IMG/VR virus record: IMGVR_UViG_3300037755_000349
Coordinates: 8,068 to 72,067 of that record
Direction: 5' to 3' (one strand)
DNA length: 64,000 nt
Source: a virus
Taxonomy: Duplodnaviria > Caudoviricetes
Part shown: piece after piece, positions 29,055 to 62,808 of the stretch
How the letters are laid out: every line of letters begins with the position of its first letter
Numbering within the stretch: the first letter of the stretch is position 1
Translations under genes and position numbers: made by a program
Notes under the pieces: model-generated
Databases searched by the model: none
Seen by the model: the letters and a program-made list of their open reading frames with translations, nothing else
What the model was told of the DNA's origin: nothing

Positions 29055-30473
29055 ATGCTGCAACAACCACAGAATTCCTCGATGCAGGAGTACATGGCGC
29101 AGTACGGTGAGCGCTTGAACGCGCTACTTGGTTACGCGCCGCAACCATCGAATCTCGGTGCTGCGCAGTCCGGCGAGAGTCCAATGGTGGACGAGATGGG
29201 CGCCGCGCCAGCGTCGCCAGGCATGAATCTCGGCGCCGAACAGGCACAGCCGATGATGCAGCAACAGCCCGCGGCAGCTCCGGCCGCGCCGAGTGCTGCG
29301 CCGGCGCCGACTACTCCGCCCATGCAGAAGAACGAGAAGGGCCAGGTGGTGATCGAGTCGCGCCCCAAGGACTTCGACTTCGGTGTGAAGGATGACGATC
29401 TCAAGGATGTGAAGAGCGTCGGGGACCTGGTGCAGAAACTGCCCGAGGAGAAGGCGAACGCATACATGGATTGGTGGGAAGAGCGCTACGGGCAGGTCAA
29501 TGGCAAGTACGACGCGATGCTGGCGGAGCTTGGCCAGCGTCCCGATCCTAAGTCTCGCGATCTATCGCGCAAGGACAAATTCACGCTGCTGATGGAGTTC
29601 GGCCTCAATTTGATGAAGCACTCTCAGCAGGGCGGCGATCGAACTGGCGCAATGGGAGCCGCTCTGCACGATACCGTGCGAGGTGATCAAGCACGCCGGG
29701 AGAAGGACTTCGAGCGGCATCGGAGTCTGAGTGGCGAAATCGAAGGGCGGCGGCAGCAAGACCTCAAGGCGATCGGCACGCGCGGAGATGCGATGGTCGC
29801 GTCGCAAAACCTTGGCGCTGCCGCTGCCAAAGAAGGCCGCGAAGCGACCGAGTTCGCCGAGCGCGACGAGGAAGTCAAGAACATCGTCTATGGCGATGAG
29901 GGTGTCGTCGGTGTTACTCGCAAGGGTGAGGGGCGTACCGTCACCGATGAGACCGGCCGCGCCGTCAGATCCACACTCGGCATTGCTCGCGGATCTCGCG
30001 GTAGTGGCCGCGGTGCTGGCGGCTATGCGCCGCATAACATTGAGAAGCTCGCGACTTTTTACTCCAAGACCTACGACATCCCGATCGAGGTTGCCACCAA
30101 CATCGCGCGCTCGGAAAAGAACGCGACCGATCCGTTCAAGATGTATTCGACCATCTTGAACGGACAGCTTCGGCAATACATGCCGGCCGACGAGGCGGCG
30201 AGGGTAGCGAAGGAGTTGGTCGAGGGTGCGTTCGGTGAGGGCGCGCTCGACAGCAAGCCAGGTGCGCCGATCGAGCGACCAGGTGGCGGCGGCAACCTCG
30301 GCGCCGCGGAGCCCGCCGCCGCGCCTGCACCTGGTTCGAGTCTCGGCAGCTCCGCTCCGCCGGCAAATCTGCTCAAGTCGGGCAAGGTGACCACGATCCG
30401 AAACAAGCGCACTGGCGCAGAGGAGAAGTGGACGCTCGATGAGACCGGACAGCCCAAGCGAGTACTACGCTGA
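29055..30473 (+). CDS. DNA ejection/transfer protein 2
   Basis: Low-complexity helical ORF between ejection protein 1 and the giant gene. Confidence 0.6.
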   Translation: MLQQPQNSSMQEYMAQYGERLNALLGYAPQPSNLGAAQSGESPMVDEMGAAPASPGMNLGAEQAQPMMQQQPAAAPAAPSAAPAPTTPPMQKNEKGQVVIESRPKDFDFGVKDDDLKDVKSVGDLVQKLPEEKANAYMDWWEERYGQVNGKYDAMLAELGQRPDPKSRDLSRKDKFTLLMEFGLNLMKHSQQGGDRTGAMGAALHDTVRGDQARREKDFERHRSLSGEIEGRRQQDLKAIGTRGDAMVASQNLGAAAAKEGREATEFAERDEEVKNIVYGDEGVVGVTRKGEGRTVTDETGRAVRSTLGIARGSRGSGRGAGGYAPHNIEKLATFYSKTYDIPIEVATNIARSEKNATDPFKMYSTILNGQLRQYMPADEAARVAKELVEGAFGEGALDSKPGAPIERPGGGGNLGAAEPAAAPAPGSSLGSSAPPANLLKSGKVTTIRNKRTGAEEKWTLDETGQPKRVLR

Positions 30474-30474
30474 C

Positions 30475-33400: not shown

Positions 33401-36400
33401 AAGGCGGATCTCGCGACGGGGAGACTGCGCGCCTGGTCTCGAATGGCAAGGAGTTGTGGCGCGGCGAGTGGAACGCACGCAAGTCGCAAGAGGCGAACTA
33501 TCAGGCGATGGTGAAGGCGATCAAAGGCGCCGGCCTGAAGATGATCGTGGGCGCCGATGACTCGATCGCAATCAACCAGGTCGCTGTAACAGATCCGAAC
33601 ATTCTGAAATTCGATCAGGCGAAGCTGCACAAGAAACGTCTTCCATTGGAAGAGCGAGCGGATGACGCCTCAGATCAGCAGCGAGCCACGTTGCGCGATA
33701 TCGATACGGCGTCGGTTACTCCGCAATTTCAATTGCGCGCCGCCACGGAGGATGTCTACGACACCGCGGATGCCCACTTCACCTCTTCGGAGGTTTTGAA
33801 GGGCGTTCATGATGTGCCGCTGAAAACTCTTGGCCTCACTGGCTACGACGATGCGAAATCTGTCGCGCGTATCGCGCGCCTGGCCGAGCAGATCAAGGAG
33901 AGCGGCGAGGTCTCGCCGATCATGGTGGGCATCGACCGCAATGGCGAAGCCTACGTGATGGAGGGCCAACATCGAGCGCGCGCGCTGCAACTACTTGGTA
34001 GTGACAGCATCCCGGCGAAAATCGTCTTGGACACGACCGACGACGATGGCGTGCGGCTACATAAGAAACAAACCGAGACTGCCGCATTCAAGAAGTGGTT
34101 CGGCGATAGTAAGGTGGTCGATGCGGACGGCAATCCTCAAGTCGTCTATCACGGCACCGGAAACCTGGAGGGGCTGAACGAATTCCGGCCCGAGCTAACT
34201 GGCCTCGGCAACGATCAAATCGGCAGCGGCTTTTACTTCACGACAAGCCAGGAGGAGGCAAGCGCTTACACAACAGCGCGCATGCCGAACGCAGGAACCA
34301 AGCTCGGCGGTGATCAATCACCAGGCATTGTTCCTGCCTACCTGAGCATCAAGAATCCGATCATCGTAAAAGGCCCCAATCTTCGCGATGTTGATGTGGA
34401 TCTGTCGGCGAAGCAGGTAGAGGCAATTATCCGCCACGCGCCGCGGTTATTCGATGTTGAAAACACGCCGCTTCTTGATTGGCATGAGAATGCGAGCACA
34501 CGCGTTACTCCGGCAATGGTCAGGGATGTAGCAAAGAAATACACCGGCCCGGCGCTTATCCAGATCGAACACGATTTTTTTGGTCGTGAAGGCGAGGCCA
34601 CGAAGTTCCGCGAAGCGCTGCGCAAGGTGCTCGGGTATGACGGCGCGGTGATCGACTTCGGAACGAAGAAGCATTGGGTCGCCTGGTTTCCTGAGCAGAT
34701 CAAAAGCGCGATCGGCAACCGCGGCACGTTCAATCCGAAAGATCCGGATATTCGCTTTCATAATAAGCAGTCCAAAACCGACGCGTTCAGGCGCTGGTTC
34801 GGTGAAAGCAAAATCGTGGACGACGAAGGCAACCCGCTCGTCGTGTACCACGGCACGGGCAGCGACTTCACCGAGTTCCAGCCTACCGATTACGGCTGGT
34901 ATGGGTGGGGTTCTTACTTCACCAGCAACGAAAAATTCGCGAATGAGTTCGCCGAGGGAGCGGACGGCAATCCGAACGTGATGCCGGTGTATCTGGCGAT
35001 CGAGCGGCCTTTCTACTTCACACCGAAGGACAACGACACGCCAACCAACGTGCAGTTGCTCATGGCTGTCGGACACTCACGCCGCAAAGCCGAGAGCATC
35101 ATCAATCGCGAAGGCGACGTGAACGTCCGGGTATTCGACAAGCTGCAAGAGGAGGGGCACGACGGCATTGTCGTGCTCGAACCTGGGCGCACCGAGTACA
35201 TCATCTTCGAGCCATCGCAGATTAAGAGCGCGATCGGTAACACCGGCGCATTCGATCCTGCTAATCCGAACATTCTATTTCACAAGGCTTTCCACGGCTC
35301 GCCGTATCGCTTCCAGAAGTTCGTGCTCGATGACAAGACCATCGGGACCGGCGAAGGCGCACACGCCTACGGATGGGGCCTGTACTTTGCCGAAAACGAA
35401 GCCGTTGCAAAGGACTATCAGCGCCGCCTGTCCGATTCCTCCGCGCATGTGCGCCTGAGCGTGAATGGCAAGGAATTGGAGGACGGACCCGAGCGCCATG
35501 GCGCCAGTCTCGTGGCCTTCAACGATCTGCGCGAGGTGCGCGCACTCGCGAAGCGCTGGCTCGCCGAGTATGAGAACGACCCCGGCATGAAGGAGACGGC
35601 GGAGCACGCCGGCCTAGCCGCGGCGGAGTATTGGCCACGGTTGAACAGCTTCGTGCAAAGCCACACGAAGAGGGACATCAAGGTGGCGCGCGGCTTGCTG
35701 TACAGCGTGGAGATCAACGATGCCGCGGTGAAAAACATGCTGGACTGGGATGTGACGTGGGAATCGCAACTCGACACGGTGAAGGAGACGCTGCGCAAGG
35801 CAGGCGTGTTCAAACGCTACAAGGCGAACCTGAGCAACTACGGCACGCCCATGCAAACGCGCAATCGCAAGATGCGCGGGGAGAGCATCTACGCGTTCCT
35901 GAGCATGGAGAAGGGCGGCGACCAAGCGGCCTCGAAGTATCTCTCCTCGCTCGGCATCCACGGCCTGCGATACAAGGACGAAGGATCGAGAGGCAAACGC
36001 GGCGGCACACGCAACATCGTGGTGTTCGACGACTCGATCATCACTGTGACGCACATCGATGGCTCGCCGGTCACGGCGCAGGAGCGCACCGATGCGATCG
36101 GTCCGCTGTTCAGCCGCGTCAACACCAACGCGAATGAGAGCAGGTATCGCGCGATCACGGGCACACCCCGCGAGCAGCGCTCCGCGCAAGTGCGCACGGA
36201 AGTGAACCGCGTGCTGCGCAACTTCCCCGGCGCATCGGCCAACGTGGTGCAGACTTTCAACGAGCTGCCCAACGACGTGCGCGCGCGTGTGATCGCCGCC
36301 GGCGGCCTCGATGAGAAAGGCAACCCCGCGGTCGATGCGTTCTACGACCCGCCAACCGGCCAGGTGTATTTCATCGCGAACGAGATCGAGTCGATCGACA

Positions 36401-39400
36401 GCATCGAGTCGTTGTTCCTGCACGAGTATGTCGCGCACAAGGGCCTGGTCGGCATGCTCGATACGGCAAAGCGTGACGAAATTCTCAACGGCATTGCACG
36501 CGACCTGCCCGACCTGGTGCGGCAGAAGGCGGCCGATTACGGCTATCGCTTTCACGTTCCTGCTGAACGACGAGTCGCGGCCGAGGAGGTCGTCGCTGAG
36601 ATGGCGGAGACTTTCTTGCGAGGTCGGGATCTGCCGGCGAAGCAGAAGGGTATTCTCGATCGCATAATTCAGGCGATCGCTGATGTCTTGCGGCGCATAG
36701 GTCTGCGCAAATACGACGAGCAATTCATCGCCTCGTTACTCACGGATCTGCACCGCTATGCGCGCGAAGGCCATGCTCGGAAGGAAACCGCTGAGCCGTA
36801 TCGCGCACGCGCAAGTACGGCCCCTGCGTTCCCTGATTGGGATGATTCGAACGCCTCCGAGGTCGTCCCCAACTTCCAGGACTATGTGGATCGCGCGCGC
36901 CTGCATCTCTCCGGGAAGAGTGAAGAGGAGATCTATTCCTATGCGCTGAAGCAGTTCGACGAACGGCAACAGCTCTGGCAGTGGGAGGGATTCTTCGAGG
37001 GCGGGCACGTCCTTGTGCGCGGGACACAGGCCGGTGGCTACGATCTCTACGTCAACGATGCGCTCATCGTCCCGGATGACGGCGGAAACTACCCGAACCT
37101 ACAGCTCGCACAAGCGGCAGCTCGGGTACTCGTGGCGGAGGAGGGTGGAGTCTCCGACGCCGAGGCTGAGCGCATCCTCAACGCAGTGCCATTAAGCGCG
37201 GACCTGCGCGTCAAGTTCCATCGTAAACCGTTCTTCTCGCAGCTCGCCGTGCGGCTGTCGGAGCTGCGCCTACAGAAGGCGCCGGCGTCCCAGTGGCGCG
37301 GCGTCATCGCGAACCTCACCGGCAAGGGCGTGAGCCCCGAAGAGATCGAGTGGCTCGGGATCAACGAGTGGCTCGCCGAGCAGGATGGCAAGGTCACGAA
37401 GGAGCAGGTACTGCAATACGTGCGCGCCAACCAAGTGCAGATCCAAGAGGTCGTGAAGAGCGCCTTTACCAAGGAAACCATTGACGAGGCAGTCACTGCT
37501 ATTGACCGCGCTCTCGGCACTTTTACGGACTGGATCACGCCTGGTGATCTTGATTATTACGATCGCGTCGAGCCGTCCGTCGATAAGGATAAGTTCACGA
37601 CCTATGCTCGTACCGCAAAGGGCGAGCGCATCGACATGACCGTGAAAGTCACAGACGTGGATTCCCAAGATTGGAACGATGGCGGATGGGTTAACGCGAC
37701 CGTCACTCTCGCAGATGGTCGCAGCGCGGAGGCCGGCGCATGGTTCAGTTATCGCCGCGGCACCCTTGAGATTGATCCTTATGGGCTTGGCGAGTGGCGC
37801 GGTGATGAATTCTCAGAGGATGAGGTTGATGCTATCAAAGAGGCAATCGGCGAGATCGCCTTGTCCGAAAACACAGAGCTAATGGACACTGTCCAACACG
37901 CCTCGGACGAATTCGATAGCGATCTTATAAGAGCAAGAAACGAACTTTTGAGTGGCGACGTGGAGGCGGCTATTTCTGCACTTAAAGACGCGGCCCGCAC
38001 AGAGCGCGTATACGGCGATGATGTAACCGTTAGCCCGATTGTAGATCTACTCACCGAGGATGAGGGATCTATCAAGTATGAAGACTGGAAGCTACCGGGC
38101 GGCGAGAATTATCGCGAACTGTTGCTGACGCTGCCGCCAAAGAAAGATCTGCCGGAGGAATTCAAGGCGGTGGAGATAGGCGAAGGCCGATGGGCCGTGT
38201 TCGGTCCTGGCCCGCAAGGCGCGAATCGATACGGTTCCGGCACCACGCGCGAGGAAGCGATCGAATCCTTCGTCGGTCACGGCCACACCGGGGCGTTCAT
38301 CTCAAAGCACTGGGCCGAGCCGAACATCCTCGCTCACGTGCGCTTCGATGAGCGCACCGACGCTGATGGCAAGCGCGTGCTGTTCATTGAGGAGATACAG
38401 AGCGATTGGCATCAAGCCGGCCGCAAGCACGGATACAAAGGCGACTATGTTCCGCCGTCCACGGCTGATATCGAGCGGTACAACGAACTGCGCGCAAAGA
38501 GGGACATCACCAACACGGAAGATGCAGAGCTGACCAAGCTGGAGAAGCTGATACGCCAGCACGATGACATGATCGCTAGACTGGTGCCGGATGCTCCCTT
38601 TAAAACATCATGGCCCGAGTTGGCGTTCAAGCGCATTTTGAAATGGGCTGTCGATGAAAACTTCGATCGCGTGACGTGGACCACCGGCGCGCAGCAGGCA
38701 GATCGATATGATCTGAGTAAAAAAGTAAAAGCGATCGAGTACACGGCCTCGGGTCGGTTGATTGCCATGGGCATAAGTGGCAGTCCGGTAATGAATGAGG
38801 CGGTCCCAGAAGAAAAAATCGCTGACTATGTTGGCGAAGAGCTTGCCAAGAAGTTACTCGAACAACCCTTAGTTAAGGCAGGACCAGTGCACAGTCGTGT
38901 GTTGCGCGATGTGGATTTGAAGATGGGCGGCGAGGGCATGGTTGAGTTCTACGACCAGATGCTGCCGCGCATCGCCGTCAAACTCACGAAGAAGTGGGGT
39001 GGCCGAGCATCGAAGACAAAGCTGCGCGGTGTCACTCGCGAAGAGCGGATCAACGATCGCTACCAGATCCGCGAGACCTCCGCGGGCTGGACGCTGCTCG
39101 ACGCGGCCGGCAATCCGCTTGCTGATCGACGCGCCTTCCGCAACGGGGCGGCGGCCGAGAAGTGGCTGGAGGAGAACGGCTACCTCGATGAGGAGGTTCA
39201 CTCGCTGGATATCACCGACGACATACGCGAGGTCGCGCTCGGCGGCCTGCCGATGTTCCATCGAAAGTCCATGGTCGGCGTGTTCCGCCGGCGCCAGGCG
39301 GTGCAGAACGGCACCTTTGACCTGGTCGAAGGGTCGCGCACCTCGCGCTGGTGGAACCTCCTGGTCTTCAAGGCGCAGGACCGTTTCTACGATCTGTTCC

Positions 39401-42207
39401 GGCTCAACGAGCAGGCGAAGATCTTCCGCCAGATCGCGCAGCTCCCCGACTCGATGGACGCGTACCTGAAGGAGACGCTCTACCATGGTCGCGTAGAGGA
39501 TCGCGTCAAAGAGTACGAGAAGCAGTTCGTCGAGCCACTGGTGAAGATGATCAAGGACTCCGGCTATACCTGGCAGCAGGTGGAGGATTACCTGTACGCG
39601 CGGCACGCGCCCGAGGCGAACGCGAGGCTCCTCACGATCAACAACGGGAATCCGAACTTCCATTCCGGTATGACGGACGCCGAGGCCACGCAGGTGATGA
39701 CGGCGCTCGGCGCTGCGGGCAACATCGCGAACCTGCAAGCGATCGGCGCTCATGTCGATGCAATGACGCAGTGGGAGCGCTCCACGCTGGTGCTGGAGGG
39801 CCTCGAAGACCAGGCCACCATCACCGAGTGGGAGAACACCTATGATCACTACGTCCCGCTCAAAGGGTGGGCGCACAACCCTGAACTTGCTGAAATGCCT
39901 CGTCGAGGCCGAGGCTTTGATACTGGTGGTCGGACAACAAAAGACCGCACTGGCCGCACGTCTCGTGCGGGAAACATCCTCGCCAACATCGTCGCGCAAG
40001 CGCAGATGGCCGTCATCCGCGCGGAGAAGGCCAAAGTAGGCCGGGCGCTGCTGGAGTTCGTGAAAGCGAACCCGGCGCCGCGGCTATACGAGGTCAACCA
40101 GGTCGAGTACCACCGCTACATCGACTCGGGCACGGGCCTGGTGCGCCAGGGCGTGAACCCGCAGTACAAGCTCGCCGACAACGTGGTGCGCGTGCGCATG
40201 GCCGGCAAGGATGAGCACATCGTGTTCAACCCCAACGAGCCGCAGATGCAGCGCCTGGCGACCGCGATGAAGAACCTCTCGGCCACCGAGATGGGCCTGA
40301 TCCTGTCGTTCCTGCACGGGATCAACCGCTACCTCTCGACGATCAACACCTCGCTGAATCCCGAGTTCGTGATCTCCAACGCGCTGCGTGACTTGCAGAC
40401 CGCTGGCATCAACTTGCAAAGCACCGACCTGAAGGGCCAGGCGCTCGCGATCATGAGCCAGTGGCGCCATGCCTGGAAGGCGATCCGTCAGGCCGAAGCC
40501 GGCAACACGACGCACGCGTGGGCGCCGTGGTGGGATCGCTTCAAGAAGGCCGGCGCGAAAACCGGGTGGATTCAGCACTACGGCACGCCGGTGGACATCG
40601 AGAAAAAACTTCAAAAGGAAATCAACCGGCACGGTGTGGTGGGCAACGCGGCCAAGGGGATCGAGGTGACGCTCGGCTGGATCGAGCGGCAGAACCTGGC
40701 GGTCGAGAACGCCATGCGTCTGGCCGCCTTCCGGGCTGCTGTCGAGGCTGGCATGTCGGACGAGCGCGCCGCGCAGATCGCGAAGAATCTCACCGTGAAC
40801 TTCAACAAGCGCGGTGACCTGGGTATTGCACTGAACTCGTTCATCCTGTTCTACAACGCCGGCGTGCAGGGCACGGCAACGATCCTGCGTGCAGCAAAGA
40901 GCCCGCGGGCGCGCAAGTTCATGTATGGCCTGGTCGCGGCTGGCATCGTCATCGACATCATCAATCGCATGGTGGCGGGCGAGGACGATGATGACGAGAA
41001 CCGCTACGACAAGATCCGCAGCTACGAGAAGGAGCGCAACATCATCGTGATGCTGCCGAAGGAGCAGCGCTTCACGCTGCCATCGGGCGATGAGATCGAT
41101 CACCTGAAGATCCCGATGCCCTACGGGTACAACTTTCTGTACTACACCGGAACGAAGATCGGCGGCGTGCTCGACTATCACACCATCGGCAACAAGCGCC
41201 GCTTCGAGCCGGCCGAAGATGCCGCGCAGGTGGTGGCCTCGTTCTTGGGCGCATTCAACCCGATCGGTGGGTTCGCCAATCCACTGGAGTCGATCACGGC
41301 GGTGGAGCAGTACATCCAACTGAAAGAAGAGCGAGCGTGGGACGGCCGCCCGCTCATGCCACCACAGCCGCAGTACGACATTCCGGTGCCGGACTCGCAA
41401 CGCTTCTGGCGGTCCACCGGCAAGGGTGCGCGCGAGGTCACGGCTTGGCTCAACGAGCACACCGGTGGCACCGACGTAACGCCGGGCAAGATCGACATCT
41501 CGCCGGCGACGGTGGATTACTGGATTGACTTCGCCCTCGGTGGCAGCGGCCGGTTCATCTCCAACACGATCAATGCGACGCACGATATCGCGCTTGATCG
41601 CAAGGACCTGGACCTGGGCGAGGTGCCCTTCGTGCGCCGCGTGCTCGGGCAGACCGGGGAGCGCGATCGCCAGGAGCGGTTCTACACGCGCATGAACGAA
41701 GTGCAGTACGTGATCAAGGAGCGCGAGGTCGCGCGCGAGATGCGCCGCTTCGCGAAGACGCCCGAGGAGATGCAGCCCTACGAGGAGCGCAACGCATTCA
41801 TCGATAAGCGCTACCCGATCGCGGCCAAGGTGGAGATGGAAGGCCGGCGCGCGGAGGCCAAGCTCAAGCAGCTCCGAGCTGGACGCAAGGCGCTCCAGAA
41901 ACAGGAGGGCCGCATGGAGGAGAGCAAGCGGCTGGAGCGCATCGAGTCGATCGAGGCGGAGATGCGCGCCACGATGGACCAGTTCAATCGCTCCTGGAAC
42001 GAGGCCGAGGACGCACAGCGCGGCGCCACCGAGACGAAGGATCTGATCGGCCAGCTCGGACCGATCATCGACGGCAAGAACCGCCGCGACGCCGTGCGTG
42101 CGTTGCGTGAGGCGGGCAAGCCGGCGACAGCCGAGCTGCTCGCGGCACTGCCGACCACGCTTCGCACGCAGCTCCGCGAGCTGCTGGAGCAGGAAGCCGC
42201 CTCATGA
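30475..42207 (+). CDS. giant polyvalent ejection protein (~3910 aa): PPase-like, ParB-like, about four ART-like modules, HExxH-type peptidase, LPD38-like C-terminus (tentative)
   Basis: IENPKGS.R...DYGY...ADGDHVDVF..DEHKVMLG; EGQHRA.AL; F.KWFG.SK.VD..G.P.VVYHGT..G.GFYFT; FHGSP..G.GEG..AYGWGLYF; LHEYVAH. Confidence 0.85.
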   Translation: MATNEWEVIGEEPDVLQPATQPTVAPQNVLQGAVQNDWEVLGEEDLTPDALLPGEALNLATAPDEQFGLDETQRSMASALTRAGADQIIDDVASREILAAPPPAPGRIEPTALTATRRFLPGGKQIAEPVDPDVDLRAMKRLPGNIGRSSKAQVKEAIAGTQRLFADLQANMDIAKAESYRSYQSDDPQVLAQQQAAAGEAEERAGHAELAQGRAARTTRRAQAEGQAAIPADAGEIERAIQSGVSSAAVTLPIVTLGSVVPGGQGAALVTLGGMTGSARYGELRAAGLDEGTAALSAAALGGLEGLTEKIPLGTLAKKSPFIEKATEFLVQDLLGENVSTVAQIADDYRLGLRDDVTMADVQQAIKETSAATIAGSAAQLTVSGIFEQALNRANQKAIDREAKAGMQRQEPFISEPDLAGIGELEYEAAPAAAAGDLEVVAEEPLAAAPGSAQDELAALEALRKGGATPEQEAILEGLGHLVRTETGTPVLLPSGRRRLTELNQQLADSRSETKNQALPQPVAAGAKEAPGSAQPGLGEAAGTTPSLTEATQGAARGVRVGRSPAPGGERQGESVAAGEANLEDTIPIPQQYERVILESIIKDDATPGQIGIAISRGFAKRRSDGTATLLPAGRRRLVELESGQPPADVEATFEGEELRRAGDLRRTPRVEVKPAQARSGSVQTPRGGFTVHVDGKPVVELPDAQAAREAAAGFAADGTFKTTVAGQPVSVDVTPTDAQKASGTYTKGHIRYEGLQISIENPKGSIRSGVSESGRKWSRALGADYGYVRGSESADGDHVDVFLGDATSDVAYIVDQVKADGTFDEHKVMLGYPSLEAATAAYRAQYPKGWKGLGAITHIPIADFKTWVKSPQAKQPYAWKPKAQAVAAVPSAEPAPERAKLHKKIYRGTEAGTKGAETRAAPRGELGPGIYFTPDAKLAASYGGGPTASIAKGTRVVHTAELARDLKAEEIGTLEGGSRDGETARLVSNGKELWRGEWNARKSQEANYQAMVKAIKGAGLKMIVGADDSIAINQVAVTDPNILKFDQAKLHKKRLPLEERADDASDQQRATLRDIDTASVTPQFQLRAATEDVYDTADAHFTSSEVLKGVHDVPLKTLGLTGYDDAKSVARIARLAEQIKESGEVSPIMVGIDRNGEAYVMEGQHRARALQLLGSDSIPAKIVLDTTDDDGVRLHKKQTETAAFKKWFGDSKVVDADGNPQVVYHGTGNLEGLNEFRPELTGLGNDQIGSGFYFTTSQEEASAYTTARMPNAGTKLGGDQSPGIVPAYLSIKNPIIVKGPNLRDVDVDLSAKQVEAIIRHAPRLFDVENTPLLDWHENASTRVTPAMVRDVAKKYTGPALIQIEHDFFGREGEATKFREALRKVLGYDGAVIDFGTKKHWVAWFPEQIKSAIGNRGTFNPKDPDIRFHNKQSKTDAFRRWFGESKIVDDEGNPLVVYHGTGSDFTEFQPTDYGWYGWGSYFTSNEKFANEFAEGADGNPNVMPVYLAIERPFYFTPKDNDTPTNVQLLMAVGHSRRKAESIINREGDVNVRVFDKLQEEGHDGIVVLEPGRTEYIIFEPSQIKSAIGNTGAFDPANPNILFHKAFHGSPYRFQKFVLDDKTIGTGEGAHAYGWGLYFAENEAVAKDYQRRLSDSSAHVRLSVNGKELEDGPERHGASLVAFNDLREVRALAKRWLAEYENDPGMKETAEHAGLAAAEYWPRLNSFVQSHTKRDIKVARGLLYSVEINDAAVKNMLDWDVTWESQLDTVKETLRKAGVFKRYKANLSNYGTPMQTRNRKMRGESIYAFLSMEKGGDQAASKYLSSLGIHGLRYKDEGSRGKRGGTRNIVVFDDSIITVTHIDGSPVTAQERTDAIGPLFSRVNTNANESRYRAITGTPREQRSAQVRTEVNRVLRNFPGASANVVQTFNELPNDVRARVIAAGGLDEKGNPAVDAFYDPPTGQVYFIANEIESIDSIESLFLHEYVAHKGLVGMLDTAKRDEILNGIARDLPDLVRQKAADYGYRFHVPAERRVAAEEVVAEMAETFLRGRDLPAKQKGILDRIIQAIADVLRRIGLRKYDEQFIASLLTDLHRYAREGHARKETAEPYRARASTAPAFPDWDDSNASEVVPNFQDYVDRARLHLSGKSEEEIYSYALKQFDERQQLWQWEGFFEGGHVLVRGTQAGGYDLYVNDALIVPDDGGNYPNLQLAQAAARVLVAEEGGVSDAEAERILNAVPLSADLRVKFHRKPFFSQLAVRLSELRLQKAPASQWRGVIANLTGKGVSPEEIEWLGINEWLAEQDGKVTKEQVLQYVRANQVQIQEVVKSAFTKETIDEAVTAIDRALGTFTDWITPGDLDYYDRVEPSVDKDKFTTYARTAKGERIDMTVKVTDVDSQDWNDGGWVNATVTLADGRSAEAGAWFSYRRGTLEIDPYGLGEWRGDEFSEDEVDAIKEAIGEIALSENTELMDTVQHASDEFDSDLIRARNELLSGDVEAAISALKDAARTERVYGDDVTVSPIVDLLTEDEGSIKYEDWKLPGGENYRELLLTLPPKKDLPEEFKAVEIGEGRWAVFGPGPQGANRYGSGTTREEAIESFVGHGHTGAFISKHWAEPNILAHVRFDERTDADGKRVLFIEEIQSDWHQAGRKHGYKGDYVPPSTADIERYNELRAKRDITNTEDAELTKLEKLIRQHDDMIARLVPDAPFKTSWPELAFKRILKWAVDENFDRVTWTTGAQQADRYDLSKKVKAIEYTASGRLIAMGISGSPVMNEAVPEEKIADYVGEELAKKLLEQPLVKAGPVHSRVLRDVDLKMGGEGMVEFYDQMLPRIAVKLTKKWGGRASKTKLRGVTREERINDRYQIRETSAGWTLLDAAGNPLADRRAFRNGAAAEKWLEENGYLDEEVHSLDITDDIREVALGGLPMFHRKSMVGVFRRRQAVQNGTFDLVEGSRTSRWWNLLVFKAQDRFYDLFRLNEQAKIFRQIAQLPDSMDAYLKETLYHGRVEDRVKEYEKQFVEPLVKMIKDSGYTWQQVEDYLYARHAPEANARLLTINNGNPNFHSGMTDAEATQVMTALGAAGNIANLQAIGAHVDAMTQWERSTLVLEGLEDQATITEWENTYDHYVPLKGWAHNPELAEMPRRGRGFDTGGRTTKDRTGRTSRAGNILANIVAQAQMAVIRAEKAKVGRALLEFVKANPAPRLYEVNQVEYHRYIDSGTGLVRQGVNPQYKLADNVVRVRMAGKDEHIVFNPNEPQMQRLATAMKNLSATEMGLILSFLHGINRYLSTINTSLNPEFVISNALRDLQTAGINLQSTDLKGQALAIMSQWRHAWKAIRQAEAGNTTHAWAPWWDRFKKAGAKTGWIQHYGTPVDIEKKLQKEINRHGVVGNAAKGIEVTLGWIERQNLAVENAMRLAAFRAAVEAGMSDERAAQIAKNLTVNFNKRGDLGIALNSFILFYNAGVQGTATILRAAKSPRARKFMYGLVAAGIVIDIINRMVAGEDDDDENRYDKIRSYEKERNIIVMLPKEQRFTLPSGDEIDHLKIPMPYGYNFLYYTGTKIGGVLDYHTIGNKRRFEPAEDAAQVVASFLGAFNPIGGFANPLESITAVEQYIQLKEERAWDGRPLMPPQPQYDIPVPDSQRFWRSTGKGAREVTAWLNEHTGGTDVTPGKIDISPATVDYWIDFALGGSGRFISNTINATHDIALDRKDLDLGEVPFVRRVLGQTGERDRQERFYTRMNEVQYVIKEREVAREMRRFAKTPEEMQPYEERNAFIDKRYPIAAKVEMEGRRAEAKLKQLRAGRKALQKQEGRMEESKRLERIESIEAEMRATMDQFNRSWNEAEDAQRGATETKDLIGQLGPIIDGKNRRDAVRALREAGKPATAELLAALPTTLRTQLRELLEQEAAS

Positions 42208-57149: not shown

Positions 57150-57896
57150 ATGGCCCCGAAAGCAGCGCATGTAAAAAAGCCCAACACACGCGCCATGGCC
57201 AGATCTCGATCCGCAGAGATGCGCGAGAAGCTGTGCCACGAATATGTAAAAGACTACAACGCCTATGCTGCGGCGCTGCGAGCCGGTTTCAGCGAGTCGA
57301 TGGCGAAGACGAAGTCGGGCGCCATGGTGAAGCAGATGATGCCCTACATCTCGAAGCTCCAGGCCAAGAAGAACGACCAGCTCGTGCGTCGCGGCGTCAT
57401 GACGCAGGACGAAGTACTCCAGGGGATGAGCAACATCGGTCGAGTGAACCCGCTCGACTACATTCGCATCGTGTCGATTACCAAGGGCAAGAAAACCGTG
57501 CTGGCGACGCAGCTCAAGGACATCACCGAGCTGACGCGCGAACAGGCCGATGCGATCACGGAAATCACCGAGCACGGTGGCCAGGTCACGTACAAGCTAC
57601 CTGGCGTGTCGGAGAAGATGGCGGCGCGCGCGTTTATCGGAAAGCACTGGGGCATCACCGATCCGAAGCTGGTCAACCTGCGCATCACGCAGAACATCAC
57701 GATGAACGCCGAGCTGAAGGACGTGGACACCGACAAGCTCGAAGAGCTGGAATCGCGCATGATCGAGCTGCTCGGGCCAGCAGCTCGCCGACTGTTGGGG
57801 TATCGACCAGGTGACGAAGACCAGGAACAGGCGCCCCTTGAAATCGCAGACGGGGCACTCGACAGCGACGATGACGAGGACGACGAGGACCGATGA
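57150..57896 (+). CDS. terS: terminase small subunit
   Basis: EYVKDYNAYAAALRAGFS HTH; helical body; KxxA..FIGKHWG motif. Confidence 0.8.
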   Translation: MAPKAAHVKKPNTRAMARSRSAEMREKLCHEYVKDYNAYAAALRAGFSESMAKTKSGAMVKQMMPYISKLQAKKNDQLVRRGVMTQDEVLQGMSNIGRVNPLDYIRIVSITKGKKTVLATQLKDITELTREQADAITEITEHGGQVTYKLPGVSEKMAARAFIGKHWGITDPKLVNLRITQNITMNAELKDVDTDKLEELESRMIELLGPAARRLLGYRPGDEDQEQAPLEIADGALDSDDDEDDEDR

Positions 57897-59605: not shown

Positions 59606-59661
59606 AAGATAGCAGCTCCTTGAACGGACGGAGAGCGTGGGGCGTCCGAAAGGTTCGATGT

Positions 59662-59791
59662 GGCGTGGTGAAAGAGGTGGGGTACTTCGCCTGTTAAGCG
59701 GGAAACGTCGGTTCGAATCCGGCCGGCGCCTTCGGGTGCTGTCGTCTAGTGGTAGGACGCCTTATAGCTCCCTGTCTCGCCTGTTCCCGCC
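59662..59791 (+). ncRNA. Y-RNA-like (Yrl) permuted tRNA mimic, unit 1
   Basis: GGCG/CGCC terminal helix; anticodon-like arm CGC-CTGTTAA-GCG; T-arm GTCGG-TTCGAAT-CCGGC; 7-bp acceptor-like stem closed by TTCG; D-arm GTCT-AGTGGT-AGGAC. Confidence 0.85.
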
Positions 59792-59802
59792 CGATGATTT
59801 GA

Positions 59803-59953
59803 TTGCGCGTGGTGAAAGAGATCGGTTACTTCACAACCTAGAGGTCACGGGTTCGATCCCCGTCGTCGCTGGATCGGGCGGCGTAGCTCAGTTGGTAGAG
59901 CGCAAGGCAGTAGCCCTTAACTGGGCAAACCGGTTTCGCCTGTTCCCGCGCAA
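59803..59953 (+). ncRNA. Y-RNA-like permuted tRNA mimic, unit 2
   Basis: TTGCGCG/CGCGCAA; 10-bp GAGATCGGTT/AACCGGTTTC; T-arm ACGGG-TTCGATC-CCCGT; closed acceptor stem; D-arm TA-GCTC-AGTTGGTA-GAGC. Confidence 0.88.
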
Positions 59954-59964
59954 GTGATTTGGAT

Positions 59965-60083
59965 GATCGTGGTGATAGAGGTCGGTTACTTCGCTTTTGC
60001 AAGCGACGATGGGGTTCGATTCCCTACCACCGCGCAACGGTGGACCAGGCGGTAGTCAACGCCGATCTCGCCTGTTCCCGATC
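59965..60083 (+). ncRNA. Y-RNA-like permuted tRNA mimic, unit 3
   Basis: GATCG/CGATC; GAGGTCGG/CCGATCTC; arm TCGC-TTTTGCAA-GCGA; T-arm TGGGG-TTCGATT-CCCTA; CCACCG/CGGTGG; degenerate D-arm. Confidence 0.82.
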
Positions 60084-60091
60084 GACGATGT

Positions 60092-60236
60092 GACGTGGTG
60101 ATAGATCGCGAGTTCTTCGCAAGAGGTTGCAGGTTCGAATCCTGTCGGTTGTACCGCAAGGTTCCCAACCGATAGCCCTGGCATCGCGAATGCGGTGATT
60201 GGCTCCAGGGCACACGCGCGGTCGCCAGTTCCCGTC
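60092..60236 (+). ncRNA. Y-RNA-like permuted tRNA mimic, unit 4
   Basis: GACG/CGTC; GATCGCG/CGCGGTC; T-arm GCAGG-TTCGAAT-CCTGT; CGGTTG/CAACCG; GCCCTGG/CCAGGGC. Confidence 0.78.
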
Positions 60237-60284
60237 CAACAAGAATTACATGCGGCGTGGTATTCCCGCCAAAGGAGAGCGACG

Positions 60285-61709
60285 ATGAAGACGAACACGA
60301 AGCGCAAGGCAGTCCCGCCGAAGCGTAATGTCAACGCACGAACTCACGAGGGCGCCCCGGCCGACGCGGCGCCGGCATACATGGAGCTGCGCCGCTCCGT
60401 GCTCTCGTGCATGCTATGGGAAAATGAGTTCTACGAGTCAGGCTCGCAGATCGCGTTGCGGGTGAAGGAGCTTTGCCACCGCGTGACGGCCGACCAGCTC
60501 GCGAACCTCGCGATCAAGGCACGCATCGATTACAAGCTGCGGCACATGCCGCTGTACTTGGCGCGCGAGCTGGTGCGCCATAAGGACGCGGGTCCGAACA
60601 TCGTGGCCGGCACGATCGAGCGCGTCATTCAGCGCGCCGATGAGCTGGCCGAGTTCATGGCGATCTACTGGAAAGAGGGTAAGTGCCCGATCGCCAATGC
60701 CGTGAAGCGTGGCCTGGGCCGCGTCATCAGTAATTTTGATTCGTACCAGCTCGCGAAGTACAACCGCGATAATGCGGTGGCGCTGCGCGACGTGCTGTTC
60801 ATGGTGCACGCCAAGCCGAAGGATATCGGCGATCGCAAGGGCAAGAAGGCCAAGGCGATTGCACGCAAGGGATACAAGCGCGGGGCAACGATGCGGCACA
60901 AGACGCCGCAGGCCATTTCCTACCAGCAGCTCGCCGACGATGAACTGCCGACGCCGGACACCTGGGAGACGAACCTCTCCGGCGGGGCCAACAAGAAGGA
61001 AGTCTTCGAACGCCTGTTGAGCGAGAACAAGCTCGGCTACATGGCGTTGCTGCGTAACCTGCGCAACATGGAGGAGGCGCAAGTCGATCGCCGGTTGATC
61101 GTGCAGCGATTGCGCGAAGGGGCGCCGAAGTCGAAGGCGTTGCCGTTCCGGTTCATCGCCGCCGCGGTGCATGCGCCGCGCTTCGAGGATGTGCTCGATG
61201 AGTGCATGCTGTTGAGCCTGGGCGCGATGGACAAGTTGTCTGGCCGCACGGTGCTGCTGATCGACAACTCCGGCTCGATGTACCAGGAGAAGATCTCGGC
61301 GAAGTCGGAGCTGACTCGCGCGCAGGCAGCGCAGGCGCTGGCTGTCATGGCGCGGGAGATCTGCGAGGAGGTGGTGATCTATGCCTTCTCGAACAAGTGC
61401 GAGCTGGTGCCGCCGCGGCATGGCATTGCCCTGGCGAACGCGGTGCGTGACGCCACCACGCACGGCGGCACGGCCACCGGCGACGCGTTGCGCCTTCTCA
61501 ACGAGAAGGAAGACTACGATCGCATCATCATCTTCACGGACGAGCAGACGAACGACGTGCTCGGCAAGCCGAAGAACGAAGCGGTCGGGTACATCATCAA
61601 CGTCGCATCGAACCAGTACGGGATCGGTGGCGGCAACTTCGTGAAGATCGACGGCTTCTCGGAGCAGGTCCTGCGCTTCATCTCGGTCGTCGAGGCTGGC
61701 GGAGAGTGA
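60285..61709 (+). CDS. rsr: Ro60/TROVE-domain RNA-binding protein (TROVE + vWA)
   Basis: AAAGGAG RBS; THEG..., LRR.VLSCMLWE..FYESG, I.RADEL, F..YQLAKY, TWET.LS, GYMALLRNLRNM, LPFRF; vWA DNSGSM...GGT...FTDEQ. Confidence 0.95.
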   Translation: MKTNTKRKAVPPKRNVNARTHEGAPADAAPAYMELRRSVLSCMLWENEFYESGSQIALRVKELCHRVTADQLANLAIKARIDYKLRHMPLYLARELVRHKDAGPNIVAGTIERVIQRADELAEFMAIYWKEGKCPIANAVKRGLGRVISNFDSYQLAKYNRDNAVALRDVLFMVHAKPKDIGDRKGKKAKAIARKGYKRGATMRHKTPQAISYQQLADDELPTPDTWETNLSGGANKKEVFERLLSENKLGYMALLRNLRNMEEAQVDRRLIVQRLREGAPKSKALPFRFIAAAVHAPRFEDVLDECMLLSLGAMDKLSGRTVLLIDNSGSMYQEKISAKSELTRAQAAQALAVMAREICEEVVIYAFSNKCELVPPRHGIALANAVRDATTHGGTATGDALRLLNEKEDYDRIIIFTDEQTNDVLGKPKNEAVGYIINVASNQYGIGGGNFVKIDGFSEQVLRFISVVEAGGE

Positions 61710-61858
61710 ATTACGCGCACGGTGGGGATGGGTGACCGCCGTGCGGAGAGTGCCGAGGAGCAACCCAAGGCTTCGCGTGGATCAGGGTTAGATCTCCCTG
61801 GGTTATGCGTAGTACGGCCCGCCGCCTTTCCCTACGACGGTCAGCGGCGGGAGTCTTT

Positions 61859-61933
61859 GCCCCTGTAGCTCAGTCGGCAGAGCACTAGGCCCTTCAAGCC
61901 TGGAGGTCGAGAGTTCGATTCTTTCCGGGGGCG
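61859..61933 (+). tRNA. atypical tRNA (Glu-like, TTC) with anticodon arm enlarged by 2 nt
   Basis: GCCCCTG/CGGGGGC acceptor, GCTC/GAGC D-stem, CTAGGC-CCTTCAA-GCCTGG arm, AGGTC variable loop, GAGAG-TTCGATT-CTTTC T-arm; followed by CCCA. Confidence 0.8.
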
Positions 61934-62065
61934 CCCATGACAGCAGCAGCAATGAACACAGGCAGGCGGTGGGCACGTCGATGTACGGGGGATTGTTGCT
62001 GGTTCCTGCCCGGCGATCCGCACTGGGCAAATCACTGTGTTTTCTGTGGTCACCAAAGTGAGGTA

Positions 62066-62413
62066 ATGTCGATGTCGATCAAACTTGAACCTGTTCAGTC
62101 CAGCAACCTGGCCGCGATCGGCTATGACGCCGCCGGCGCGCTGCTCATTGTCGTATTCAGCAACGGCGCGAAGTGGAAGTACGAGGGCGTGCCGGCTGAA
62201 GTGCACCAGGCGCTGATGAACGCCGAGAGCAAGGGCCGCTTCTTCCACACCGACATCAAGCCGAAGTACTCGGCCACGCAGTATGTTGATCAGGCGGCCG
62301 AAGTTGCCGCGGCCTCAACCGACCAGGTGGTCGACGCTCAAGCGCCGGCGGAGGACTCGATCTCCGGAGAAGAGGTCGCGCTCCAGGGATCGACGGAGAC
62401 TACTACCGGATGA
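62066..62413 (+). CDS. KTSC-domain protein
   Basis: GAGGT RBS; PVQSSNL.AIGYD.....V.F.NG..W.Y.GVP..VH..LMNA.SKGRFF...IK. Confidence 0.88.
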   Translation: MSMSIKLEPVQSSNLAAIGYDAAGALLIVVFSNGAKWKYEGVPAEVHQALMNAESKGRFFHTDIKPKYSATQYVDQAAEVAAASTDQVVDAQAPAEDSISGEEVALQGSTETTTG

Positions 62414-62808
62414 AATGCGCCAAGTGCGCAAAGGACGCGATCGTGGTGGCCTGCTACAAGTTCAATGCAGGCCGCCGCGATGGCGTATGGGAGCCGGTCT
62501 ATCTCAACAGTAGGCTCGGCTTCTGTCCGCGGCATCGGCCGCACAGTCCGATGGTATTGATGGACGAGAAGAACTGGCGCCGGATCGAGGAGCACATGCG
62601 CTCGACGGTGTATCCGAACTTGGATCGAGGCAGCGCGCAAGGCTACTGGAAGGAGGTTCGCGATGAGACGCAAGCGACAGAAGTTCGAGGTGACGCCGGC
62701 GCGAGAGGCGGAGATCCGCTCGGACATGGCCAGGTGGGAGCAACGCACCGCCTCGCAGATGAGTCCGCACATGCAGATGTGCGAGGACCTGCTGGCCCTT
62801 CTGGATGA
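62410..62808 (+). CDS. hypothetical Cys-containing protein
   Basis: ATGA coupling; CAKC...FCPRH; end overlaps ORF 62663. Confidence 0.45.
   Translation: MKCAKCAKDAIVVACYKFNAGRRDGVWEPVYLNSRLGFCPRHRPHSPMVLMDEKNWRRIEEHMRSTVYPNLDRGSAQGYWKEVRDETQATEVRGDAGARGGDPLGHGQVGATHRLADESAHADVRGPAGPSG

What the first reader, a model, noticed from the sequence alone, without database searches (positions are those of the whole stretch)
59662..62413. Complete RNA-surveillance cassette: Yrl x4 - Ro60 - atypical tRNA - KTSC, with no RtcB in the window
Seen: a contiguous, co-oriented block of four ncRNAs, TROVE+vWA, a structured spacer, a non-canonical tRNA and a KTSC protein, downstream of terS. Established: bacterial Ro60 genes often lie next to RtcB RNA ligase and Y RNAs and act in RNA damage responses; KTSC is a small nucleic-acid-binding domain. 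Inference: the phage builds its own Ro RNPs, to protect or repair tRNAs, recruit host PNPase/RtcB, or titrate host RNA-damage signalling. KTSC may be the partner that binds the tRNA-mimic module.
Basis: inference. Interest (0 to 1): 0.78.

Follow-up and report, generated by a model that had tools for sequence, protein, structure and literature searches.

The report
Phage Ro60 gene with Y RNAs
An uncultured 72-kb phage carries a Ro60 RNA-binding protein gene preceded by four tRNA-like "Y RNA" genes, a pairing already known from other phages, while the odd tRNA and the small KTSC gene beside it look like neighbours, not parts of the same system.

Summary
Four tandem Yrl RNAs (59661-60239) and a Ro60 gene (60285-61709) are real. 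A covariance model built from related phage loci scores the four units at 50-107 bits. Across 28 units, 94.6% of cells pair, against 44-53% when partners are slid. Arrays of 2-8 such units flank Ro60 in nearly every related phage locus: 8 in CcrColossus, 6 in Brevundimonas phage Gurke, 3 in Xanthomonas phage Olaya. This is therefore a new member of a known kind (Chen 2014; Thermus phage phiLo 2025). Earlier notes of this scan report the same arrangement in at least 20 other genomes.

The wider "cassette" does not hold. KTSC is absent from all 24 related Ro60-bearing viral records, and no protein family is shared across Ro60 neighbourhoods. Lack of RtcB is the rule: 21 of 23 other records lack it. 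The spacer folds no better than shuffles.

The tRNA (61859-61937) is real and odd. It has an intact tRNA body, a 19-nt anticodon arm (6-bp stem, loop CCUUCAA, C33) and no tRNA-Glu-type D arm. No counterpart with this anticodon-arm geometry turned up, so its role and its link to Ro60 are unproven.

Most likely mechanism: phage Ro60-Yrl particles that engage host PNPase and tRNA-handling enzymes. This is inferred, not shown.

The parts
57150..57896 (+). terS (small terminase), upstream landmark; not part of the module
   Evidence: phrog_51 E 1.8e-18. TerL lies past the terminal repeat at genome 912-2609 (phrog_38, 3.7e-68).
59661..59794 (+). Yrl unit 1: closing stem, anticodon-arm-like hairpin (loop CUGUUAA), T arm, acceptor-like hairpin, D arm
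   Evidence: R1 102.3 bits. Rfam YrlA 20.7 bits, below threshold. ARAGORN calls its 5' half 'tRNA-Asn', but Rfam tRNA gives 27.6 bits, under the 29-bit cut-off. Hairpin seen.
59805..59953 (+). Yrl unit 2: closing stem, T arm, acceptor-like hairpin, D arm and an extra hairpin; no anticodon-like arm
   Evidence: R1 107.1 bits; Rfam YrlA 32.8 bits, E 1.9e-4; fold.
59965..60085 (+). Yrl unit 3: closing stem, small hairpin, T arm, acceptor-like hairpin, degenerate D region
   Evidence: R1 65.0 bits, E 1e-14; not in the training set.
60091..60239 (+). Yrl unit 4: closing stem, T arm, acceptor-like hairpin, and a long hairpin in place of the D arm
   Evidence: R1 50.5 bits, E 8e-11; not in the training set. 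Fold z = -2.72.
60254..60270 (+). Short hairpin GGCGUGG-UAUU-CCCGCC that copies the terminal helix of unit 1, just before the Ro60 ribosome-binding site
   Evidence: Read from the sequence. A similar cgtggtatccccg precedes the ribosome-binding site in L016 only. Function unknown.
60285..61709 (+). Ro60/Rsr homologue (TROVE + vWA, 474 aa)
   Evidence: Pfam TROVE 3.9e-19, VWA_2, vWA_Ro60. phrog_850. PDB 9KOP/9L5Y phiLo Ro60, E 3.5e-21 over residues 16-473, with DNSGS aligned to the phiLo DVSGS. GC3 0.87.
61710..61857 (+). Non-coding spacer; not shown to be a structured RNA
   Evidence: z = -1.39. No coding signal. No homologue. The R1 match at 61768-61924 (17 bits) is carried by the tRNA D arm.
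61859..61937 (+). Non-canonical tRNA: intact acceptor, D and T arms; 19-nt anticodon arm (6-bp stem + CCUUCAA, or 5-bp stem + 9-nt loop); anticodon position UUC with C33; 3' end G-CCCA. Neighbour; link to Ro60 unproven
   Evidence: Rfam tRNA 54.1 bits. ARAGORN drawing. Body closest to Thr/Gly/Lys/Phe-type tRNAs. No tRNA with this anticodon-arm geometry in three collections.
62072..62413 (+). KTSC-domain protein (113 aa); neighbour, not a conserved partner of Ro60
   Evidence: PF13619 8.6e-21. PDB 7X8C 1.4e-11. Absent from 24 of 24 related Ro60 records. Its stop overlaps the ATG of the next ORF at 62410.

Best explanation
The functional unit is a phage Ro60-Yrl module: four tandem Y RNA-like genes followed by the Ro60 gene. 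Each RNA has a closing stem with the conserved Ro-binding-type internal loop (GGUGA[A/U]AG opposite GCC[U/A]GUU). Each also carries a different tRNA-like module. By analogy with characterised systems, the RNAs bind the outer face of the Ro60 ring. Their tRNA-like modules then engage host factors: PNPase as in Deinococcus and Thermus phage phiLo, plus RNase P, the CCA-adding enzyme and tRNA-modifying enzymes. This would re-tune host exoribonuclease and RNA-surveillance activity during infection. The phage brings no RNA ligase or kinase, so any repair step would have to be done by the host. The non-canonical tRNA and the KTSC gene are adjacent accessory genes in the variable region between terS and the genome end. 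They are not conserved components.

Shown here: homology, covariation, synteny, and the absence of KTSC and RtcB in relatives. Inferred: Ro60 binding, PNPase recruitment and the effect on infection.
For: The Yrl family is supported by shared termini and by an 8-sequence alignment with 24 of 34 pairs showing compensatory changes. R1 finds four units in the window and 2-8 next to Ro60 in nearly all of 27 loci, on the same strand. On 28 units, 94.6% of cells pair against 44-53% when slid, 28 of 34 pairs change on both sides, and the covariation score is 0.725 against at most 0.14.

Rfam YrlA scores in the window (32.8, 20.7) are in the same sub-threshold range as in CcrColossus (42.3, 30.5, 29.9), a phage named in the literature as a Yrl carrier (PMC12135203).

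Published work supports the model. YrlA lies near Ro60 in 254 bacteria and 22 phages and mimics tRNA (PMC4201824). In phiLo, Ro60 and two upstream Yrls bind host PNPase (PMC12135203).

No conserved protein neighbour exists. KTSC is absent in relatives. RtcB, Rnl2 and PNK-type kinase are absent from the whole genome. RtcB is absent from 21 of 23 other Ro60 phage records.
Against: There are no expression, binding or processing data, and the host is unknown. The phage has no close relative: TerL is at most 40% identical to any GenBank phage, and neither TerL nor KTSC has a relative in IMG/VR. Conservation of the tRNA and KTSC at this position within the phage's own lineage therefore cannot be tested.

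The units fall short of Rfam's YrlA gathering score. Real tRNAs do sit near Ro60/Yrl arrays in several phages, so a functional tie between the array and the tRNA is not excluded.
Confidence: 0.75

Rival explanations
1. Yrl x4, Ro60, the tRNA and KTSC form one integrated RNA-surveillance cassette, and KTSC is the protein that binds the tRNA-mimic modules.
For: The elements are adjacent and co-oriented within 2.8 kb. No terminator-like site was found between them. KTSC has been called an RNA-binding domain of lysyl-tRNA synthetase in one comparative paper (PMC7824862).
Against: KTSC is absent from 24 of 24 related Ro60-bearing viral records, with a working positive control. No accession is shared between the listed KTSC and Ro60 GenBank phages. 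Four KTSC phages have no Ro60 and no tRNA near KTSC. KTSC has its own ribosome-binding site and is translationally coupled to the downstream ORF, not to Ro60. The same authors elsewhere call KTSC DNA-binding (PMC9503650). The whole region is co-oriented anyway.
Confidence: 0.05
2. The odd tRNA is functionally tied to the Ro60-Yrl unit as part of one stable-RNA operon. It would be either a decoding tRNA whose altered anticodon arm escapes a host anticodon nuclease, or a non-decoding decoy for such a nuclease or for a tRNA-modifying enzyme.
For: By inspection of the sequence, the tertiary-interaction positions of the tRNA body are canonical (U8, A14, G15, G18, G19, A21, G46, C48, G53:C61, T loop UUCGAUU). 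Only the anticodon arm is changed, which argues for selection on the fold. tRNAs or a permuted tmRNA lie within about 3 kb of Ro60 in L012, L016, L018, L023, L024 and Gurke. Phage tRNAs with altered anticodon loops that evade tRNA-targeting defences are documented (PMC10264068, PMC11464382, PMC11555353).
Against: It is a singleton: no tRNA with this anticodon-arm geometry appears in IMG/VR, JGI metagenomes or 185,579 species genomes. The tRNAs next to Ro60 in other phages have ordinary anticodon arms. C33 and a 6-bp stem should impair normal decoding. The D arm (C11:G24, C13:G22) lacks the tRNA-Glu determinants known from E. coli (established knowledge), so charging with Glu is doubtful. Clustering of RNA genes can be explained by shared processing alone.
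Confidence: 0.15
3. The tRNA is a decaying or hitch-hiking tRNA gene. A former Thr/Lys/Gly-type phage tRNA suffered changes in the anticodon arm and now has no role. At most it serves as an RNase P/Z processing signal between the Ro60 and KTSC messages.
For: The nearest sequences are ordinary tRNA-Thr/Gly/Lys/Phe. There is no conserved counterpart. The 3' end reads G-CCCA, not N-CCA.
Against: The two extra bases form a perfect extra C:G pair and every other stem is fully paired, which is not what random decay predicts. Phage genomes usually purge dead DNA.
Confidence: 0.2

Closest known systems
Thermus phage phiLo Ro60 with Yrl1 and Yrl2 (PDB 9KOP, 9L5Y; PMC12135203)
   Same: A phage-encoded Ro60 (TROVE + vWA) with Y-like RNA genes directly upstream on the same strand. 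It is the closest solved structure by sequence (E 3.5e-21, full length). phiLo has no phage PNPase, and no RNA ligase or PNK was found here, so the host would have to supply such enzymes.
   Different: Four units here against two in phiLo. The units here carry tRNA-like T, acceptor and D modules; the passages of the phiLo paper read here describe stem-bulge-stem RNAs with a CGAA motif. Host and lineage are unrelated. Binding to PNPase is shown for phiLo and only inferred here.
YrlA / YrlB of Salmonella, Mycobacterium smegmatis and mycobacteriophages (Rfam RF02553; Chen et al. 2014, PMC4201824)
   Same: A closing stem with a GNCGAAN0-1G-type motif, then a V hairpin, T arm, acceptor-like hairpin and D arm, encoded within 4 kb of Ro60.
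   Different: The Rfam gathering score (69 bits) is not reached (32.8 bits at best). The motif reads GGUGA(A/U)AG, with U in place of C. The Salmonella locus is part of the rsr-yrlBA-rtcBA operon under RtcR, and neither RtcB nor RtcR-type control is seen here.
Ro60-Yrl loci of Caulobacter phage CcrColossus, Brevundimonas phages (e.g. Gurke) and Xanthomonas phages (e.g. Olaya)
   Same: Ro60 proteins are 44-47% identical. Yrl units of the same family lie in tandem upstream: 8, 6 and 3 units. The V loop CUGUUAA recurs.
   Different: The genome backbones differ (jumbo or 43-kb phages against this 72-kb phage). None has KTSC beside Ro60. In two of these GenBank records, part of a Yrl unit is annotated as a tRNA.
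Phage tRNAs with altered anticodon loops that evade tRNA-targeting defences (PMC10264068; T5 tRNA-Lys against PARIS, PMC11464382)
   Same: A phage tRNA with a normal body and a deviant anticodon arm.
   Different: The change here is a 2-nt enlargement plus C33, not base substitutions in a 7-nt loop. No target nuclease, host or aminoacylation is known, and nothing was tested.

Membership tests
Ro60 / Rsr (TROVE + vWA) | TROVE domain above the Pfam cut-off | tested here: met
   PF05731 scores 69.6 bits against a cut-off of 23; phrog_850 gives 2.8e-41 over residues 15-471.
Ro60 / Rsr (TROVE + vWA) | C-terminal vWA domain with a MIDAS DxSxS motif | tested here: met
   VWA_2 scores 31.6 bits against a cut-off of 27. 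vWA_Ro60 scores 27.6, just under its 27.7 cut-off. DNSGS aligns with DVSGS of phiLo Ro60.
Ro60 / Rsr (TROVE + vWA) | Full-length homology to a solved Ro60; ring-shaped HEAT-repeat fold | tested here: inconclusive
   Sequence homology to 9KOP/9L5Y over residues 16-473 (E 3.5e-21) and to D. radiodurans Rsr 2NVO (2.8e-5, vWA part). The fold itself was not predicted.
YrlA / Y RNA-like (RF02553) | Rfam gathering score of 69 bits | tested here: not met
   Units 2 and 1 score 32.8 and 20.7 bits. CcrColossus units score 42.3, 30.5 and 29.9, so the Rfam model under-scores this whole phage clade.
YrlA / Y RNA-like (RF02553) | Encoded within 4 kb of a Ro60 gene (criterion of Chen et al. 2014) | tested here: met
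   The array ends 46 nt before the Ro60 start, on the same strand.
YrlA / Y RNA-like (RF02553) | Closing stem of the 5' and 3' ends with a conserved GNCGAAN0-1G-type internal loop | tested here: met
   All four units have GGUGA(A/U)AG; relatives have GGCGAAG, GGUGAAG or GGUGUAG. Helices 1 and 2 pair in 97.4% and 94.2% of cells, and 14 of 15 pairs change on both sides. The motif is a U-for-C variant.
YrlA / Y RNA-like (RF02553) | tRNA-like module (T arm, acceptor-like hairpin, D arm) | tested here: met
   Complete in units 1 and 2. Units 3 and 4 keep the T arm and acceptor-like hairpin. The T, AS and D helices covary.
YrlA / Y RNA-like (RF02553) | Binding to Ro60; tRNA-type modification and processing | not testable with these tools
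   Needs RIP, gel-shift or Northern experiments.
tRNA (RF00005), as tRNA-Glu(UUC) | Cloverleaf above the Rfam gathering score | tested here: met
   54.1 bits against 29.
tRNA (RF00005), as tRNA-Glu(UUC) | 17-nt anticodon arm (5-bp stem, 7-nt loop) with U33 | tested here: not met
   The arm is 19 nt: CUAGGC-CCUUCAA-GCCUGG, with C at position 33.
tRNA (RF00005), as tRNA-Glu(UUC) | Bacterial tRNA-Glu body (special D arm: U11:A24, U13:G22) | tested here: not met
   The D stem is GCUC/GAGC (C11:G24, C13:G22). The best matches in five bacterial genomes are tRNA-Thr, Gly, Lys and Phe. The nearest phage tRNA is Thr(UGU) at 79%. The identity rules are from established E. coli work, not tested here.
KTSC domain (PF13619) | Domain match above the cut-off | tested here: met
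   73.9 bits against 25; PDB 7X8C 1.4e-11 and 4RGI 8.4e-11.
Ro60-Yrl-tRNA-KTSC 'cassette' (as proposed) | KTSC co-occurs with Ro60 in related phages | tested here: not met
   0 of 24 records (control); no shared accession in the listed rows; 0 of 4 KTSC phages carry Ro60.
rsr-yrlBA-rtcBA RNA repair operon | RtcB ligase (and RtcA) encoded with Ro60 | tested here: not met
   No RtcB in the whole genome. No Rnl2-type ligase or AAA_33 kinase. RtcA was not searched.

The most novel reading that the evidence does not exclude
The phage's stable-RNA block (four Yrls plus the enlarged-anticodon-arm tRNA) could work as one anti-defence device. The Yrl modules, some with anticodon-arm look-alikes, and the deviant tRNA would be displayed on or alongside Ro60. 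There they would soak up or evade host tRNA-targeting nucleases or tRNA-modifying enzymes. One such look-alike, loop CUGUUAA (an Asn-GUU type), is identical in Xanthomonas, Caulobacter and metagenomic phages. Under this reading, phage Ro RNPs would be tRNA-decoy platforms and not RNA-decay adaptors.
Probability: 0.1. Interest if true: 0.7.

Novelty: new member of a known kind. Interest (0 to 1): 0.3.

Why it matters
The result adds a clean, complete-genome example of a phage Ro60-Y RNA module. With model R1 it also shows that tandem arrays of 2-8 Yrl genes are the usual state in this clade of phage Ro60 loci, including published isolates in which parts of them are annotated as tRNAs. That helps annotation and the choice of an experimental system. 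It does not reveal a new kind of system, because the proposed extra partners (KTSC, and RtcB-independence as something special) do not survive comparison. The one unusual item is the tRNA with a 19-nt anticodon arm. Its function cannot be assigned from sequence.

Tried and rejected
1. A regular-expression count of Yrl units missed known units. It was replaced by covariance model R1.

2. A fifth Yrl around the tRNA was suggested by GCGTGGATCAG upstream, GGTTCCTGCCCG downstream and an R1 match of 17 bits. The alignment shows that the score comes from the tRNA D arm, and the ends do not pair in the fold. Rejected.

3. A search for tRNAs of the same geometry found nothing in IMG/VR with an exact or a relaxed pattern. 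A looser pattern gave 117 matches in metagenomes and genomes, nearly all chance hits inside coding sequence. Only L037 is a tRNA with loop CCUUCAA, and it sits on a normal 5-bp stem.

4. An opal-suppressor reading (U33-UCA in a 9-nt loop) is unattractive. TGA ends 41 of 67 predicted genes, and no convincing read-through extension was seen.

5. The tRNA as an attP core: no tyrosine integrase in the genome. Serine recombinases were not searched.

6. Synteny with close relatives was not possible. TerL and KTSC have no relatives in IMG/VR, and TerL is at most 40% identical to GenBank phages.

7. The promoter and terminator scan of 57.8-64 kb found nothing useful.

8. No structure prediction was run, because sequence homology to a solved phage Ro60 was already full-length.
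Full report
SETTING. The window is bases 8068-72067 of a 72,067-bp IMG/VR virus record rated 100% complete. The record has 127-bp direct terminal repeats. By GC3 and ORF analysis, nearly all likely genes from about 52 kb to the window end are on the + strand. The order there is DnaB-type helicase, HNH nuclease, RusA, terS (57150-57896, phrog_51 1.8e-18), two unknown ORFs, the RNA array, Ro60, the tRNA, KTSC and three unknown ORFs. The genome end follows, and past the repeat come an HTH protein and TerL. The finding therefore lies in the accessory stretch between terS and TerL. 'Downstream of terS' is correct.

OBSERVATION. Four tandem units share the termini 5' CGTGGTGA[A/T]AGA...CTTC and 3' TCGCC[T/A]GTTCCCG. 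Each folds with its ends paired around a multi-branch core. Rfam's YrlA model sees units 2 and 1 only below threshold, at 32.8 and 20.7 bits against a gathering score of 69.

I fetched 24 viral loci whose Ro60 is 41-51% identical and three GenBank loci: Xanthomonas phage Olaya, Brevundimonas phage Gurke and Caulobacter phage CcrColossus. The stretch upstream of Ro60 in these loci holds units with the same termini.

Eight full units from seven phages align over their whole length. RNAalifold gives a closing stem in two helices, a T arm, an acceptor-like hairpin and a D arm, and 24 of 34 pairs show compensatory changes.

Covariance model R1 built from this alignment scores the window units at 107.1, 102.3, 65.0 and 50.5 bits. 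The last two were not in the training set. On 28 units with E < 1e-9, 94.6% of cells pair against 44-53% when partners are slid. Of the 34 pairs, 28 change on both sides, and the covariation score is 0.725 against at most 0.14. That alignment is fitted to the model, which inflates the figures somewhat.

ARAGORN's 'tRNA-Asn' at 59658-59733 is the 5' half of unit 1. Rfam tRNA gives it 27.6 bits, under the 29-bit cut-off.

Ro60 runs from the ATG at 60285, behind AGGAG, to 61709. It has TROVE and vWA domains and matches phrog_850. It aligns over residues 16-473 with the solved Ro60 of Thermus phage phiLo and keeps the MIDAS-type DNSGS.

The tRNA at 61859-61937 scores 54.1 bits. KTSC is real but starts at 62072 or 62066. 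The 45 codons upstream of that in the ORF show no coding bias. The 148-nt spacer is not distinguishable from shuffled sequence (z = -1.39).

IS IT A FOUR-PART CASSETTE? The only conserved companion of phage Ro60 is the Yrl array. R1 finds 2-8 units next to Ro60 in nearly every locus, always on the Ro60 strand and almost always upstream. CcrColossus has 8, Gurke 6, L023 4, and Olaya, L012, L013, L016 and L022 have 3 each; in L015 the units lie downstream.

An all-against-all comparison of ORFs within 3 kb of Ro60 finds no protein family shared beyond near-identical phages. KTSC (PF13619) is absent from all 24 IMG/VR records, 8 of which are complete. The same search finds it in the window's own genome at 1.4e-22.

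In GenBank phages, KTSC relatives occur in 37 records and Ro60 in 91. No accession is shared among the listed rows, though 31 Ro60 rows were not listed. In Caulobacter phage Seuss, Shewanella phage 1/41, Providencia phage PSTNGR2lys and Ralstonia phage Hennie, KTSC sits among small unknown genes. No tRNA lies nearby and none of these genomes has Ro60.

The KTSC stop overlaps the start of the next ORF (ATGA at 62410), which ties it to its downstream neighbour. The literature on KTSC is thin and inconsistent: RNA-binding in PMC7824862, DNA-binding in PMC9503650. The closest solved chains are small orphan proteins and the C-terminus of a HerA defence ATPase.

Lack of RtcB is not special. It is missing from the whole genome, as are Rnl2-type ligase and AAA_33 kinase. 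The Rnl1 search had no working control. RtcB is missing from 21 of 23 other Ro60 phage records. It occurs only in the jumbo phages Gurke and CcrColossus, about 40-60 kb away from Ro60.

THE tRNA. Acceptor, D and T arms are fully paired, and by inspection the usual tertiary positions are canonical. The anticodon arm is 19 nt: CUAGGC-CCUUCAA-GCCUGG. It can be read as a 6-bp stem with a 7-nt loop carrying C33 and UUC at positions 34-36, or as a 5-bp stem with a 9-nt loop. The 3' end reads G-CCCA; ARAGORN's alternative is an 8-bp acceptor stem followed by C-CCA.

The body is not of the bacterial tRNA-Glu type. The nearest phage tRNA is a Thr(UGU) at 79%. The best matches in Bosea, Lysobacter, Caulobacter and Cupriavidus genomes are Thr, Gly, Lys and Phe tRNAs.

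No tRNA with this anticodon-arm geometry exists in IMG/VR. A looser pattern over JGI metagenomes and 185,579 species genomes gave 117 matches. Nearly all are chance hits in coding DNA, and one is a tRNA with the same loop on a normal stem (L037).

Real tRNAs lie within about 3 kb of Ro60 in L012, L016, L018, L023, L024 and Gurke, and Gurke also has a permuted tmRNA there. Stable-RNA genes therefore tend to cluster with Yrl arrays. Those neighbouring tRNAs have ordinary anticodon arms.

An opal-suppressor reading is unattractive because TGA ends 41 of 67 predicted genes. There is no tyrosine integrase to make the tRNA an attachment site. The tRNA's function stays open. I rate a functional tie to Ro60 at about 0.15 and plain decay or hitch-hiking at about 0.2; the remainder covers an independent accessory tRNA.

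MECHANISM. Shown here: a Ro60 homologue and four RNAs of a covarying family that is syntenic with Ro60 across phages.

From established work: Y RNAs bind Ro60 through the conserved stem. YrlA modules are handled by RNase P, the CCA-adding enzyme and tRNA-modifying enzymes (PMC4201824). The Deinococcus Y RNA tethers Ro60 to PNPase (stated in PMC4201824). phiLo Ro60 and its Yrls form ternary complexes with host PNPase and damp its activity (PMC12135203).

Inferred: this phage makes Ro60-Yrl particles that act on host PNPase or on tRNA-handling enzymes. The four different modules may give four different effector specificities.

COMPARISON AND NOVELTY. This is a new member of a known kind. Rfam membership formally fails, but it fails equally for CcrColossus, which the literature names as a Yrl carrier. 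Earlier notes of this scan list at least 20 other genomes with Ro60 plus tandem Y-like RNAs, and one follow-up reached the same 'known kind' verdict.

Two points may be of modest new value. First, arrays of up to eight units are usual in this clade, and GenBank annotates parts of them as tRNA-Gln (CcrColossus) and tRNA-Ser (Gurke). Second, the hairpin before the T arm often looks like an anticodon arm, and the loop CUGUUAA recurs in several phages.

VERDICT. The KTSC and 'complete cassette' claims are not supported. Interest is 0.3.

Noticed in passing
window 59686-59700; L028, L016, L030, L022, L023, L009, L013: The hairpin between the closing stem and the T arm of the best-scoring Yrl unit looks like an anticodon arm: 4-5 bp, a 7-nt loop with U at the second position and A at the sixth, followed by (G)AGGUC. 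The loop CUGUUAA (Asn-GUU type) is identical in window unit 1, Xanthomonas phage Olaya, CcrColossus and L016. Other loops are CUGCUAA, CUCUUAA and UUCUGGA. The sequence order fits a tRNA opened between the D arm and the anticodon arm.
   Followed up: partly
window 60254-60270; L016 about 3960-3975: A 17-nt hairpin that copies the terminal helix of Yrl unit 1 lies directly before the Ro60 ribosome-binding site. A similar cgtggtatccccg precedes the ribosome-binding site of Ro60 in L016, but not in the other 25 loci. It may be a remnant of a deleted unit, or a Ro60 autoregulatory or processing site.
   Followed up: partly
L030 2149-2216 (CcrColossus, JX100810.1) and L029 2787-2861 (Gurke, ON529850.1): The GenBank features 'tRNA-Gln' and 'tRNA-Ser' just upstream of Ro60 fall inside Yrl units found by R1 (2146-2310 at 98.8 bits; 2790-2921 at 106.1 bits). 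They are probably mis-annotated Y RNA modules. CcrColossus has 8 tandem units and Gurke has 6.
   Followed up: partly
L029 6363-6708 (Brevundimonas phage Gurke): A permuted tmRNA (RF04321, 57.7 bits, above its gathering score) and two tRNAs lie about 2-3 kb downstream of Ro60. In this jumbo phage, Ro60 and its Yrls sit in a stable-RNA gene island.
   Followed up: no
window 15099-15173: The phage's other tRNA, Met(CAU), has an initiator-like anticodon stem with three G:C pairs next to the loop, but a U1:A72 Watson-Crick pair where bacterial initiators have a C1xA72 mismatch.
   Followed up: no
window 62410-62808: A 132-aa ORF whose ATG overlaps the KTSC stop (ATGA). Its N-terminus is Cys-rich (MKCAKCAKDA...CYKF...FCPRH), suggesting a zinc-binding protein. 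It has no Pfam or PHROG match.
   Followed up: no
L037 about 1745-1830 (metagenome contig Ga0315281_10075221): An otherwise ordinary tRNA with a 5-bp anticodon stem and the loop CCUUCAA (C33, UUC). The C33-UUC loop therefore exists elsewhere, but without the extra base pair.
   Followed up: no
window 30439-42207: A 3,922-aa ORF, likely a giant virion or ejection protein, already noted by other readers. It is unrelated to this finding.
   Followed up: no
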